A stretch of DNA of 64,000 nt from assembly GCF_041886205.1 (NCBI RefSeq), contig NZ_CP169029.1, one strand, 5' to 3'. The translations under genes were made by a program, and so were the position numbers. The DNA is from Escherichia coli. GTDB taxonomy: Bacteria > Pseudomonadota > Gammaproteobacteria > Enterobacterales > Enterobacteriaceae. The notes below the pieces were generated by a model, which was not told the origin of the DNA, searched no databases, and worked only from the letters and a program-made list of their open reading frames with translations. Below, one piece after another: positions 7,215 to 10,399 of this stretch (the stretch's first letter is position 1; every line of letters begins with the position of its first letter).

Positions 7215-8300
7215 ATGTTCAAGCGTCGTTATGTAACATTGCTTCCCCTTTTTGTGTTGCTTGCCGCCTGTAGCAGCAAGCCAAAACCTACTGAGACTGA
7301 AACGACCACCGGAACGCCGTCTGGCGGCTTCCTGCTTGAGCCGCAGCACAATGTGATGCAGATGGGCGGCGATTTCGCTAATAACCCGAATGCCCAGCAG
7401 TTCATCGACAAAATGGTGAACAAACACGGTTTCGATCGTCAGCAGTTGCAGGAAATTCTCTCCCAGGCGAAGCGTCTGGATTCGGTACTGCGGCTGATGG
7501 ATAACCAGGCACCAACCACATCGGTGAAACCGCCATCAGGTCCGAACGGCGCATGGCTGCGTTATCGCAAAAAATTTATTACGCCGGACAACGTGCAGAA
7601 CGGTGTGGTTTTCTGGAATCAGTATGAAGATGCGTTGAATCGCGCGTGGCAGGTGTATGGCGTACCGCCGGAAATTATCGTCGGGATTATCGGCGTTGAA
7701 ACCCGCTGGGGGCGCGTGATGGGGAAAACTCGCATCCTCGATGCGCTGGCAACGCTGTCATTTAACTACCCACGCCGCGCGGAGTATTTCTCTGGCGAGC
7801 TGGAAACCTTCCTGCTGATGGCGCGCGACGAGCAGGACGATCCGCTCAATCTGAAAGGTTCCTTTGCCGGGGCGATGGGCTACGGACAGTTTATGCCGTC
7901 GTCTTACAAACAATATGCGGTAGATTTCAGCGGCGACGGGCATATCAACCTGTGGGATCCGGTTGATGCGATCGGTAGTGTGGCGAACTATTTCAAAGCG
8001 CACGGCTGGGTGAAAGGCGATCAGGTCGCGGTAATGGCAAACGGTCAGGCTCCAGGCTTGCCAAATGGCTTCAAAACTAAGTACAGCATTTCGCAGCTTG
8101 CCGCGGCAGGTTTAACGCCACAGCAGCCGCTGGGCAACCATCAACAAGCCAGCCTGCTGCGTCTGGATGTTGGCACCGGCTACCAGTACTGGTACGGTCT
8201 GCCGAACTTCTACACCATCACCCGTTACAACCACAGCACCCATTACGCAATGGCGGTCTGGCAGTTAGGACAAGCCGTGGCGCTGGCGCGCGTGCAGTAA
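7215..8300 (+). CDS. mltB: Membrane-bound lytic murein transglycosylase B (lipoprotein)
   Basis: 361 aa from MFKRRYVTLLPLFVLLAACSS (lipobox LAAC); ORF track start 7110 is an upstream extension. Confidence 0.9.
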   Translation: MFKRRYVTLLPLFVLLAACSSKPKPTETETTTGTPSGGFLLEPQHNVMQMGGDFANNPNAQQFIDKMVNKHGFDRQQLQEILSQAKRLDSVLRLMDNQAPTTSVKPPSGPNGAWLRYRKKFITPDNVQNGVVFWNQYEDALNRAWQVYGVPPEIIVGIIGVETRWGRVMGKTRILDALATLSFNYPRRAEYFSGELETFLLMARDEQDDPLNLKGSFAGAMGYGQFMPSSYKQYAVDFSGDGHINLWDPVDAIGSVANYFKAHGWVKGDQVAVMANGQAPGLPNGFKTKYSISQLAAAGLTPQQPLGNHQQASLLRLDVGTGYQYWYGLPNFYTITRYNHSTHYAMAVWQLGQAVALARVQ

Positions 8301-8339
8301 CTATTTGCAAGAGGGGGGCGTGAGCTTCCCTCTGCTTTC

Positions 8340-8579
8340 TTACTGTTTATTCGAATTACGTAATTGCTTGATTTTTTTCGACAGCGATATCGCATATCCC
8401 AGGCAGACAACGCCTAATGCAGCCTGGCCGAAGTCGAAAGGTTCAAGATAGCCAGAAGATAAAATTTTACATACCACTGCAACCAGGGCGCTGACGCCGC
8501 CAATGGTGACCCACATGCGCATTTGCGTAGTCTGTTTGAGCACGTTTTGTGGGGTGTTATCCGTTTTCTTTGTTGCCAT
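8340..8579 (-). CDS. Candidate small membrane protein (unannotated small ORF between mltB and pncC)
   Basis: 79 aa from MATKKTDNTPQN with one predicted TM helix; GGGAGAG RBS-like motif 8 nt upstream of ATG at 8579; could be spurious. Confidence 0.25.
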   Translation of the reverse strand: MATKKTDNTPQNVLKQTTQMRMWVTIGGVSALVAVVCKILSSGYLEPFDFGQAALGVVCLGYAISLSKKIKQLRNSNKQ

Positions 8580-8760
8580 TGCTTTTCTCTCCCTGTGAAT
8601 ACATATCAATGTGAATGCGGCATGGTAGCCTTTTTTCTTTACCGGTTGGTCCTAACAGTCTTATTTCGGAATGCGACTCGTAAAATGAATCGCTCGTCCC
8701 CATCTTCTGCGGGAAAGTGCTATCTTGTCCGGCATAAATTTTTGACTGACAGAGGTTGTG

Positions 8761-9258
8761 ATGACTGACAGTGAACTGATGCAGTTAAGCGAACAGGTTG
8801 GGCAGGCGCTGAAAGCCCGTGGCGCAATCGTAACAACTGCTGAGTCTTGTACCGGCGGTTGGGTAGCGAAAGTGATTACCGATATTGCCGGTAGCTCCGC
8901 CTGGTTTGAACGCGGATTTGTCACCTACAGTAACGAAGCCAAAGCGCAGATGATCGGCGTACGTGAAGAGACGCTGGCGCAGCATGGCGCGGTGAGTGAA
9001 CCCGTCGTGGTGGAAATGGCGATAGGTGCACTGAAAGCGGCTCGTGCTGATTATGCCGTGTCTATTAGTGGTATCGCCGGGCCGGATGGCGGCAGTGAAG
9101 AGAAGCCTGTCGGCACCGTCTGGTTTGCTTTTGCCACTGCCCGCGGTGAAGGCATTACCCGGCGGGAATGCTTCAGCGGCGACCGTGATGCGGTGCGTCG
9201 TCAGGCTACTGCGTATGCATTGCAGACCTTGTGGCAACAATTTCTACAAAACACTTGA
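8761..9258 (+). CDS. pncC: NMN amidohydrolase PncC (CinA-like, YgaD)
   Basis: 165 aa from MTDSELMQLSEQVGQ; immediately upstream of recA as in E. coli. Confidence 0.9.
   Translation: MTDSELMQLSEQVGQALKARGAIVTTAESCTGGWVAKVITDIAGSSAWFERGFVTYSNEAKAQMIGVREETLAQHGAVSEPVVVEMAIGALKAARADYAVSISGIAGPDGGSEEKPVGTVWFAFATARGEGITRRECFSGDRDAVRRQATAYALQTLWQQFLQNT

Positions 9259-10399
<1,141 letters not shown>

What the first reader, a model, noticed from the sequence alone, without database searches (positions are those of the whole stretch)
8340..8579. Possible unannotated small membrane protein between mltB and pncC
A 79-aa ORF with a GGGAGAG SD-like sequence 8 nt upstream and one hydrophobic helix lies in a 457-bp intergenic region and ends at a bidirectional terminator hairpin. 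It could be a real small protein or chance.
Basis: seen in the sequence. Interest (0 to 1): 0.2.

Follow-up and report, generated by a model that had tools for sequence, protein, structure and literature searches.

The report
Conserved orphan small membrane protein gene
The 79-codon reading frame between mltB and pncC is a real gene for a small two-helix membrane protein of unknown function; it is conserved in four enterobacterial genera and already listed as "hypothetical protein", but about 90% of E. coli genomes, including typical ORF-less strains, lack it.

Summary
The ORF (window 8340-8579, minus strand, 79 aa) exists as described, with a GGGAGAG Shine-Dalgarno 7 nt before the ATG and a hairpin 6 nt after the stop. 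ORF length alone is not evidence: 26% of composition-matched random spacers hold an ORF this long. Conservation settles it. Intact ~80-aa orthologues sit head-to-head with pncC in Escherichia, Salmonella, Citrobacter and Pseudocitrobacter. They align almost without gaps at 26-58% identity, dN/dS is 0.05-0.39, and indels are whole codons only.

- There are two hydrophobic helices, not one. The model is an N-in/C-in hairpin.
- The hairpin is the mltB terminator and has a poor U-tract on the ORF strand.
- The gene is not unannotated. RefSeq calls it a hypothetical protein (WP_000201679.1).

Only 573 of 5,426 complete E. coli genomes carry it, in two alleles that sit on short recombination patches shared with sister Escherichia species.

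There is no match in Pfam, NCBIfam, PADLOC, PDB or viral structures. A weak PHROG "holin" hit is not reproduced by divergent members. I found no SOS box, structured leader, antisense signal, phage copy or plasmid copy, and no literature.

Verdict: a real, dispensable, uncharacterised small inner-membrane protein. It is ordinary in kind and of modest interest.

The parts
8340..8579 (-). CDS for a 79-aa small membrane protein (MATKKTDNTPQNVLKQTTQMRMWVTIGGVSALVAVVCKILSSGYLEPFDFGQAALGVVCLGYAISLSKKIKQLRNSNKQ). Identical to RefSeq WP_000201679.1.
   Evidence: ORF listing and annotation. Orthologues are intact in four genera with dN/dS 0.05-0.39. Hairpin model: helix 9/10-42, turn 43-46, helix 47-78.
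8587..8593 (-). Shine-Dalgarno sequence GGGAGAG, 7 nt upstream of the ATG.
   Evidence: Read from the sequence. A purine-rich GGAGAG/AGAGAG/AAGGA element holds the same position in every orthologue. The leader is unstructured and the SD is unpaired.
8622..8627 (-). Candidate -10 hexamer TACCAT, 42 nt upstream of the ATG. This is inferred, not proven.
   Evidence: A -10-like hexamer with A2 and T6 lies 33-42 nt upstream of the ATG in all 13 orthologues: TACCAT, TATAGT, TATATT, TAGAGT, TATGAT or CATAAT. None has a recognisable -35 (at most 3 of 6). The strict sigma-70 scan found nothing.
8594..8616 (-). Direct repeat ATTCACA-N9-ATTCACA between the candidate -10 and the SD. It occurs only in Escherichia and its meaning is unknown.
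   Evidence: Read from the sequence. It is kept in all six Escherichia alleles but not in Citrobacter, Salmonella or Pseudocitrobacter.
8310..8333 (.). G+C-rich hairpin shared by the convergent mltB and small-ORF transcripts. It is primarily the mltB intrinsic terminator.
   Evidence: Terminator scan on the plus strand. Fold of -18.2 kcal/mol, z = -4.2, but with a weak U-tract on the minus strand. Present in ORF-less strains. Every orthologue has a hairpin after its stop codon.
8334..8642 (.). Segment of about 310 bp (ORF, SD and proximal upstream region) that is present in about 10% of E. coli genomes and absent from the rest.
   Evidence: Alignment of long and short spacers. 573 of 5,426 genomes carry it, always as one chromosomal copy. 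No flanking repeats.
8372..8378 (-). A7 homopolymer run in the codons for the C-terminal tail. Length variants change only the last ~9 residues.
   Evidence: E. marmotae and some other members end in ...SKKNQAIT (74-77 aa), which is consistent with +1 A in this run.
8664..8729 (+). Conserved block proximal to pncC (…TTTCGGAAT…CTCGTAAAAT…CCCCATCT…GAAAGTGCTATCTTG). Most likely the pncC promoter or leader, and not specific to the small gene.
   Evidence: Conserved in all four genera and also in ORF-less E. coli.

Best explanation
The ORF is a genuine protein-coding gene, transcribed divergently from pncC and convergently with mltB.

Shown:
- It has a canonical Shine-Dalgarno sequence in an unstructured leader.
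- It encodes an ~80-residue protein with two hydrophobic helices joined by a short acidic turn (G-Y-x-E-P-F/Y-D). The N-terminal segment is basic (LKQ..Q.R motif) and so is the C-terminal tail (SKKI..LR).
- It belongs to a family with no described relatives, restricted to Escherichia, Salmonella, Citrobacter and Pseudocitrobacter, always next to pncC.
- It evolves under purifying selection but is dispensable. It has been deleted from most E. coli, and in Escherichia it moves between species on ~0.6-1.1-kb homologous-recombination patches.

Inferred:
- The protein inserts into the inner membrane as a helical hairpin with both termini in the cytoplasm, following the positive-inside rule.
- It works through helix-helix packing, using its invariant small and polar residues (G28, G56, C59, Y62). 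It either self-associates or docks onto a larger membrane protein as an accessory or modulatory subunit. Most characterised enterobacterial small inner-membrane proteins work this way (established knowledge: AcrZ, MgrB, MgtS, KdpF, CydX).
- It is expressed from a weak or activator-dependent promoter whose -10-like hexamer lies 33-42 nt upstream of the start codon.

My probabilities: real gene about 0.95; N-in/C-in two-pass topology about 0.75; modulator or oligomer role rather than lysis or toxin about 0.4-0.5. The overall confidence given (0.55) is for the whole statement, including the inferred mechanism.
For: - Coding: intact ORFs in 13 of 13 orthologous loci. dN/dS is 0.05-0.39 while dS is saturated between genera, and indels are whole codons only. 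Within E. coli, 10 of 18 differences are synonymous (binomial p = 0.003) and all 8 replacements are conservative.
- Synteny: the gene lies head-to-head with pncC/CinA in Citrobacter, Salmonella and Pseudocitrobacter, even where an ABC-transporter operon separates it from mltB.
- Translation signals: the SD is conserved in position and the leader is unstructured.
- Topology: two hydrophobic peaks. Charges are +4/-1 at the N-terminus, 0/-2 in the loop and +5/0 at the C-terminus. Two independent AlphaFold2 runs give the same helix-turn-helix, with pLDDT 67-69.
- Invariant residues: K15, Q19, R21, G28, L55, G56 and Y62, with C59 nearly invariant, across 18 diverse members.
- Accessory status: present in 573 of 5,426 E. 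coli genomes, with recombination patches.
- Not phage, plasmid, defence system or toxin.
Against: - There is no direct evidence of transcription or translation. No ribosome profiling, proteomics or TSS data could be consulted, and no paper mentions the gene.
- No convincing sigma-70 promoter was found: no -35 element and no hit in the strict scan.
- The structural model has only moderate confidence, and a helical hairpin is a generic fold.
- The proposed modulator role rests on analogy with other small membrane proteins. No partner was identified, and the neighbouring genes give no functional clue.
- Frequent loss (most E. coli, and no hit in the Salmonella species-representative genome) shows that any function is conditional.
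Confidence: 0.55

Rival explanations
1. Holin-like or pinholin-like protein. The two-helix protein oligomerises in the inner membrane into holes that dissipate the proton-motive force or release a murein hydrolase, possibly linked to the neighbouring lytic transglycosylase MltB.
For: There is a weak match to PHROG 1129 'holin' over most of the length (E = 0.0074; best 0.001 among members). One UniRef entry for the E. whittamii orthologue is auto-named 'Holin'. The architecture of two TM helices, N-in/C-in, with a strongly basic C-terminal tail is the class II holin layout (established knowledge; layout). The gene is convergent with mltB.
Against: Only 5 of 12 family members hit the PHROG, most likely the Escherichia ones, and the divergent genera do not. 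No Pfam holin family matches. tblastn finds no phage homologue except unannotated fragments that look chromosomal. No viral structure matches (all E > 1). There is no endolysin, spanin or prophage context, and the gene holds a fixed chromosomal slot in four genera. In Pseudocitrobacter, mltB is separated from the gene by a transporter operon. MltB is a lipoprotein exported by Sec/Lol and needs no holin (established knowledge). Hits between hydrophobic proteins at this level are often compositional.
Confidence: 0.12
2. Orphan immunity or protection protein. A small membrane protein that blocks a membrane-acting bacteriocin, microcin, contact-dependent toxin or phage, which would explain its patchy distribution and spread by recombination.
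For: Distribution is sporadic within species (about 10% of E. coli; many but not all Salmonella serovars). Nearly identical alleles are shared between E. coli ST131 and E. albertii on a ~1.1-kb patch. The size and two-TM layout resemble class II microcin immunity proteins (from memory, not tested).
Against: No PADLOC defence model matches. No toxin or bacteriocin gene lies nearby. The gene is never on plasmids or phages. Strict synteny across four genera points to vertical descent with losses rather than an island-borne immunity gene. No sequence similarity to any named immunity family was found.
Confidence: 0.1
3. Type I (or similar) toxin. A toxic hydrophobic peptide kept silent by an antisense RNA or an occluded ribosome-binding site, possibly SOS-linked because it lies next to recA.
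For: It is a small hydrophobic protein, dispensable and patchily distributed, and it is located two genes from recA.
Against: At 79 aa with two helices it is larger than typical type I toxins (established knowledge). The only perfect LexA box nearby is the recA operator at 9261-9276; the 1-mismatch match upstream of the ORF (8643-8658) has a GC-rich spacer and is not kept in ST131. The leader is unstructured and the SD is exposed. No promoter-like site on the antisense strand and no Rfam sRNA were found. The gene is single-copy in every genome.
Confidence: 0.05
4. Chance ORF or non-coding conserved DNA. The reading frame is accidental, and any conservation reflects regulatory sequence for pncC or mltB.
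For: ORFs of this length are common by chance in such a spacer (26% of shuffles). Two other ORFs of 81-89 aa overlap the same region. No strict promoter was found.
Against: The frame is intact in 13 of 13 loci at 26-58% protein identity with saturated synonymous sites. dN/dS is 0.05-0.39, substitutions are in excess at third codon positions, and indels are whole codons only. The start codon and SD are conserved. ORF-less E. coli manage with a 144-bp spacer, so the DNA is not needed for pncC or mltB.
Confidence: 0.02

Closest known systems
Enterobacterial small inner-membrane proteins that act as accessory or regulatory subunits (AcrZ, MgrB, MgtS, KdpF, CydX; established knowledge)
   Same: Under 100 aa, SD-led stand-alone ORF in an intergenic gap, hydrophobic helices that obey the positive-inside rule, lineage-restricted, overlooked because of small size.
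   Different: Most of those have a single TM helix and a known partner and regulator. This protein has two helices, no identified partner or regulator, no sequence similarity to any of them, and is missing from about 90% of complete E. coli genomes.
Class II (two-TMD) phage holins / PHROG 1129
   Same: About 70-90 aa, two TM helices, N-in/C-in, highly basic C-terminal tail. Weak profile match (E = 0.001-0.007) for the Escherichia members.
   Different: No lysis cassette, no prophage, no phage homologues, fixed chromosomal synteny in four genera, a longer conserved cytoplasmic N-terminus, and the match is not reproduced by divergent members.
Type I / type V membrane toxins (TisB, HokB, DinQ, GhoT; established knowledge)
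   Same: Small hydrophobic inner-membrane proteins encoded in intergenic gaps. Dispensable and patchy in distribution.
   Different: Longer, with two helices. No antisense RNA, no LexA box, no structured leader and no multicopy family.
RefSeq/UniProt 'hypothetical protein' entries WP_000201679.1, WP_000985460.1 (E. coli), WP_001519391.1 (Salmonella), WP_149461682.1 (Pseudocitrobacter)
   Same: These are the same gene and its orthologues. The window protein is identical to WP_000201679.1.
   Different: Nothing differs. These records carry no function, family or literature.

Membership tests
Class II holins (two-TMD phage holins; PHROG 1129) | Significant, reproducible sequence or profile similarity to a holin family | tested here: inconclusive
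   phrog_1129 scores E = 0.0074 (17 bits) for the window protein. Only 5 of 12 members match, with best E = 0.001. No Pfam holin family matches.
Class II holins (two-TMD phage holins; PHROG 1129) | Two TM helices, N-in/C-in, charged basic C-terminal domain | tested here: met
   Hydropathy and charge counts. Hairpin models. Topology is inferred from the positive-inside rule only.
Class II holins (two-TMD phage holins; PHROG 1129) | Encoded in a phage or prophage lysis cassette next to an endolysin or spanin | tested here: not met
   The neighbours are the core genes mltB, pncC, recA and srlA in all genera. There are no phage homologues and no viral structural match.
Class II holins (two-TMD phage holins; PHROG 1129) | Triggered hole formation or membrane depolarisation | not testable with these tools
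   Requires expression and lysis assays.
Type I toxin-antitoxin systems | Small (usually under 60 aa) single-helix hydrophobic toxin | tested here: not met
   79 aa with two helices.
Type I toxin-antitoxin systems | Cis- or trans-encoded antisense RNA, and a structured leader that occludes the SD | tested here: not met
   No promoter-like site on the opposite strand. No Rfam family matches. Leader fold z = -0.36 with the SD unpaired. Absence of an antisense transcript cannot be proven without RNA data.
SOS-regulated genes (LexA regulon) | LexA box CTGT-N8-ACAG in the promoter region | tested here: not met
   The only perfect box nearby is the recA operator at 9261-9276. The 1-mismatch site at 8643-8658 is GC-rich and is not kept in ST131.
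PspM (NCBIfam NF047839) | Score at or above the curated cut-off (80 bits) | tested here: not met
   11.7 bits, E = 0.18.
Known anti-phage defence proteins (PADLOC) | Match to a defence-system model | tested here: not met
   0 families at E <= 1.
Bona fide small membrane protein gene (generic class) | Reading frame conserved under purifying selection in related taxa | tested here: met
   13 of 13 loci intact, dN/dS 0.05-0.39, whole-codon indels only.
Bona fide small membrane protein gene (generic class) | Demonstrated transcription, translation and membrane localisation | not testable with these tools
   No expression data were accessible and no paper was found.

The most novel reading that the evidence does not exclude
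The gene is a selectively maintained presence/absence polymorphism. After an early deletion in E. coli it was brought back at least twice from sister species: the ST131 allele from an E. albertii-like donor, and the window allele from a cryptic-clade or E. marmotae-like donor. Each return came on a recombination patch of 1 kb or less. It persists because the membrane hairpin gives a niche-specific advantage, for example tolerance of an envelope stress, bacteriocin or phage, and so defines a new functional family of enterobacterial small membrane proteins enriched in the pandemic ST131 lineage.
Probability: 0.12. Interest if true: 0.5.

Novelty: new member of a known kind. Interest (0 to 1): 0.25.

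Why it matters
It shows that a small intergenic ORF flagged by eye is a true conserved gene, and it explains why nobody has studied it. Most E. coli genomes (about 90%) lack the DNA, and the species-representative Salmonella genome gave no hit. Databases list the gene only as 'hypothetical protein', with no family. It is common in the clinically dominant ST131 lineage and in many Salmonella serovars, so it is a tractable candidate for small-protein functional work. Its patch-wise exchange between Escherichia species is a tidy example of accessory-gene flow by homologous recombination without any mobile element. It does not point to a new kind of system.

Tried and rejected
- Family and structure searches found nothing above noise: Pfam, NCBIfam and PADLOC scans on the single protein and on family members, a PDB sequence profile, and Foldseek against viral and PDB structures. 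AFDB50 was unavailable.
- Holin lead: the weak PHROG hit was not reproduced by Citrobacter, Salmonella or Pseudocitrobacter members, and there are no phage homologues. It is kept only as a low-probability rival.
- A PnuC-like PHROG hit (E = 0.08, 1 of 12 members) was tempting because pncC also acts on NMN, but I rejected it as noise.
- SOS and type I toxin idea: no LexA box, no antisense signal and an unstructured leader.
- Mobile-element idea: no flanking repeats, single copy, never on plasmids. The one 'plasmid' hit is a mislabelled chromosome fragment.
- Promoter: the strict sigma-70 scan found none. A relaxed scan found only a positionally conserved -10-like hexamer with no -35. My manual attempts to fit sigma-E, sigma-28, sigma-54, CRP or RcsB motifs were unconvincing and I dropped them.
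- The first family alignment was too divergent for the genome scan, so I repeated it with a narrower alignment.
- Five literature searches by locus, accession and topic returned nothing relevant.

Full report
**1. The observation.** The window carries srlA (-), mltB (+, ending at 8300), pncC (+, starting at 8761) and recA (+). On the minus strand of the 460-bp mltB-pncC spacer there is a 79-codon ORF at 8340-8579. It starts with ATG and is preceded by GGGAGAG (8587-8593) and a 7-nt spacer. A G+C-rich hairpin (8310-8333; -18.2 kcal/mol, z = -4.2) starts 6 nt beyond the stop codon. These parts of the finding are correct.

Three details are not:
- The protein has two hydrophobic segments, not one.
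- The hairpin has a proper T-tract only on the plus strand and also exists in strains that lack the ORF. It is therefore the mltB terminator, and the small gene merely abuts it.
- The gene is not unannotated. PGAP calls it a hypothetical protein (WP_000201679.1) in the strain identical to the window and in every sampled genome that holds the DNA.

**2. Is it more than chance?** ORF length is not informative. 26% of composition-matched random 460-mers hold an ORF of at least 79 aa, and two other ORFs of 81-89 aa overlap the region. An ATG-initiated ORF of this length with an SD occurs in 0.9% of shuffles, which is suggestive but not decisive.

**3. Conservation settles it.**
- An exhaustive HMMER search of 1.8 billion representatives, followed by a profile search, found relatives only in Escherichia, Salmonella, Citrobacter and Pseudocitrobacter.
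- The Escherichia hosts are E. coli, E. albertii, E. fergusonii, E. marmotae, E. whittamii and cryptic clades. The Salmonella hosts are S. enterica subspecies enterica, salamae and indica, and three exact Salmonella sequences each occur on at least 1,000 contigs.
- All members are about 77-83 aa and align almost without gaps at 26-58% identity to the window protein. K15, Q19, R21, G28, L55, G56 and Y62 are invariant, and C59 is nearly invariant.
- In every locus examined the gene lies head-to-head with pncC/CinA, near recA. In Pseudocitrobacter a ZnuA-type ABC-transporter operon separates it from mltB, so pncC is the constant neighbour.
- All 13 orthologous DNA copies that I extracted are intact. 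Pairwise dN/dS is 0.05-0.39, synonymous sites are saturated between genera, and indels are whole codons only.
- Between the two E. coli alleles, 10 of 18 differences are synonymous (p = 0.003) and all replacements are conservative.
- The start codon and a purine-rich SD are conserved in position.

**4. Distribution and history.**
- Only 573 of 5,426 complete E. coli genomes carry the ORF-specific ~310 bp, always as one chromosomal copy in this slot. The rest have a 144-bp spacer with a clean deletion from the hairpin to about 8642.
- There are two alleles: the window type (18 genomes) and the ST131 type (555 genomes). They are 92% identical in DNA and 90% in protein.
- The ST131 allele differs from that of E. 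albertii by 1 nt in 240, and 98-100% identity extends over only ~1.1 kb.
- The window strain is 99-100% identical to ORF-less E. coli except for a ~0.6-kb patch around the ORF. That patch is 97.5-98.5% identical to a cryptic-clade Escherichia genome, and the protein is 99% identical to the E. marmotae protein.
- No repeats flank the module, and it never occurs on plasmids or phages.
- The most economical reading is an ancestral gene that was lost in most E. coli and has been exchanged among Escherichia species by short homologous-recombination patches.

**5. What the protein looks like.**
- Two AlphaFold2 runs (12 and 18 sequences) give the same helix-turn-helix: helix 9/10-42, turn 43-46, helix 47-78, with pLDDT 67-69.
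- Charges are +4/-1 in residues 1-21, 0/-2 in the turn and +5/0 in the tail. This fits an N-in/C-in inner-membrane hairpin under the positive-inside rule. That topology is an inference.

**6. What it is not.**
- No match in Pfam, NCBIfam (PspM at 11.7 bits against an 80-bit cut-off), PADLOC, PDB sequences, BFVD or PDB folds.
- A weak PHROG 'holin' hit (E = 0.0074) and an automatic UniRef 'Holin' label are the only functional hints. The hit appears in only 5 of 12 members, and there are no phage homologues and no lysis-cassette context.
- There is no LexA box other than the recA operator, no Rfam RNA, no antisense promoter-like site and no leader structure. That argues against an SOS or type I toxin arrangement.

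**7. Expression signals.**
- The strict sigma-70 scan finds no promoter.
- A relaxed scan finds a -10-like hexamer with A2 and T6, 33-42 nt upstream of the ATG, in all 13 orthologues, and never a credible -35. This suggests a weak or activator-dependent promoter.
- The highly conserved block nearer pncC (8664-8729) is also kept in ORF-less strains, so it most likely belongs to pncC.
- No expression data or literature could be found.

**8. Best explanation and verdict.** This is a real, dispensable gene for a two-pass inner-membrane small protein of an undescribed family restricted to four enterobacterial genera. By analogy with characterised small membrane proteins, I think it most likely acts through helix packing with itself or with a larger membrane protein. 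The holin-like, immunity and toxin roles remain lower-probability rivals, and the chance-ORF reading is effectively excluded.

The gene is already present in databases as 'hypothetical protein', so what is new here is recognising a coherent family and its population history, not discovering a new kind of element. Interest is modest (0.25).

Noticed in passing
window ~8280-8880; L002 vs L016; window vs L017: The small gene sits on short recombination patches. The ST131 allele is 1 nt in 240 from E. albertii NBRC 107761, with 98-100% identity over only ~1.1 kb. The window strain is 99-100% identical to ORF-less E. coli except for a ~0.6-kb patch that resembles cryptic-clade Escherichia and E. 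marmotae.
   Followed up: partly
window 8372-8378 (A7 on the ORF strand): Length changes in this homopolymer run would explain the 74-77-aa variants in E. marmotae and some Escherichia species that end in ...SKKNQAIT. Only the basic tail changes. This could be real variation or sequencing error.
   Followed up: partly
window 8664-8729 (+): A block upstream of pncC is conserved across four genera and in ORF-less E. coli. It contains TAAAAT (8681-8686) and CCCCATCT (8698-8705). From memory, the second resembles the sigma-32 -10 consensus CCCCATNT, which would suggest heat-shock control of pncC. I did not test this.
   Followed up: no
window 9261-9276 (+): A perfect LexA box, CTGTATGAGCATACAG, lies upstream of recA. 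This is the expected recA SOS operator.
   Followed up: no
L007 5268-7715: In Pseudocitrobacter a three-gene ZnuA/ABC-3/ABC_tran metal-transporter operon is inserted between the small gene and mltB, while the small gene stays next to pncC.
   Followed up: partly
phage records OR845620.1 and OR845594.1 (H86, H89): Two unannotated ~1.9-kb records named 'Escherichia phage ECO95 1-6-1' carry fragments homologous to this chromosomal gene at 53-58% identity. They look like bacterial chromosomal DNA, from packaged host DNA or contamination, rather than phage genes.
   Followed up: no
L020 (NZ_LN868944.1): The 728-kb 'plasmid 2' of S. Senftenberg NCTC10384 carries recX, recA, pncC, mltB and srlA. It is evidently a chromosome fragment mislabelled as a plasmid in PLSDB/RefSeq.
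   Followed up: partly
protein P0100 (Salmonella Typhi CT18-labelled entry): The Typhi variant has an altered, longer C-terminal tail (…HLQAQKAIVIAEGGLPSLSVN) that reads into the terminator hairpin. This suggests a small deletion or frameshift at the 3' end in that lineage.
   Followed up: no
window 8743-8752 and 8762-8771 (+): An exact 10-nt direct repeat, TGACTGACAG, straddles the pncC start codon. It is probably chance or part of the pncC translation-initiation region.
   Followed up: no
window 8594-8616 (-): An Escherichia-specific direct repeat, ATTCACA-N9-ATTCACA, lies immediately upstream of the SD of the small gene. It is conserved in all six Escherichia alleles and absent in the other genera. 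It could be a regulator binding site, but this remains unexplained.
   Followed up: partly
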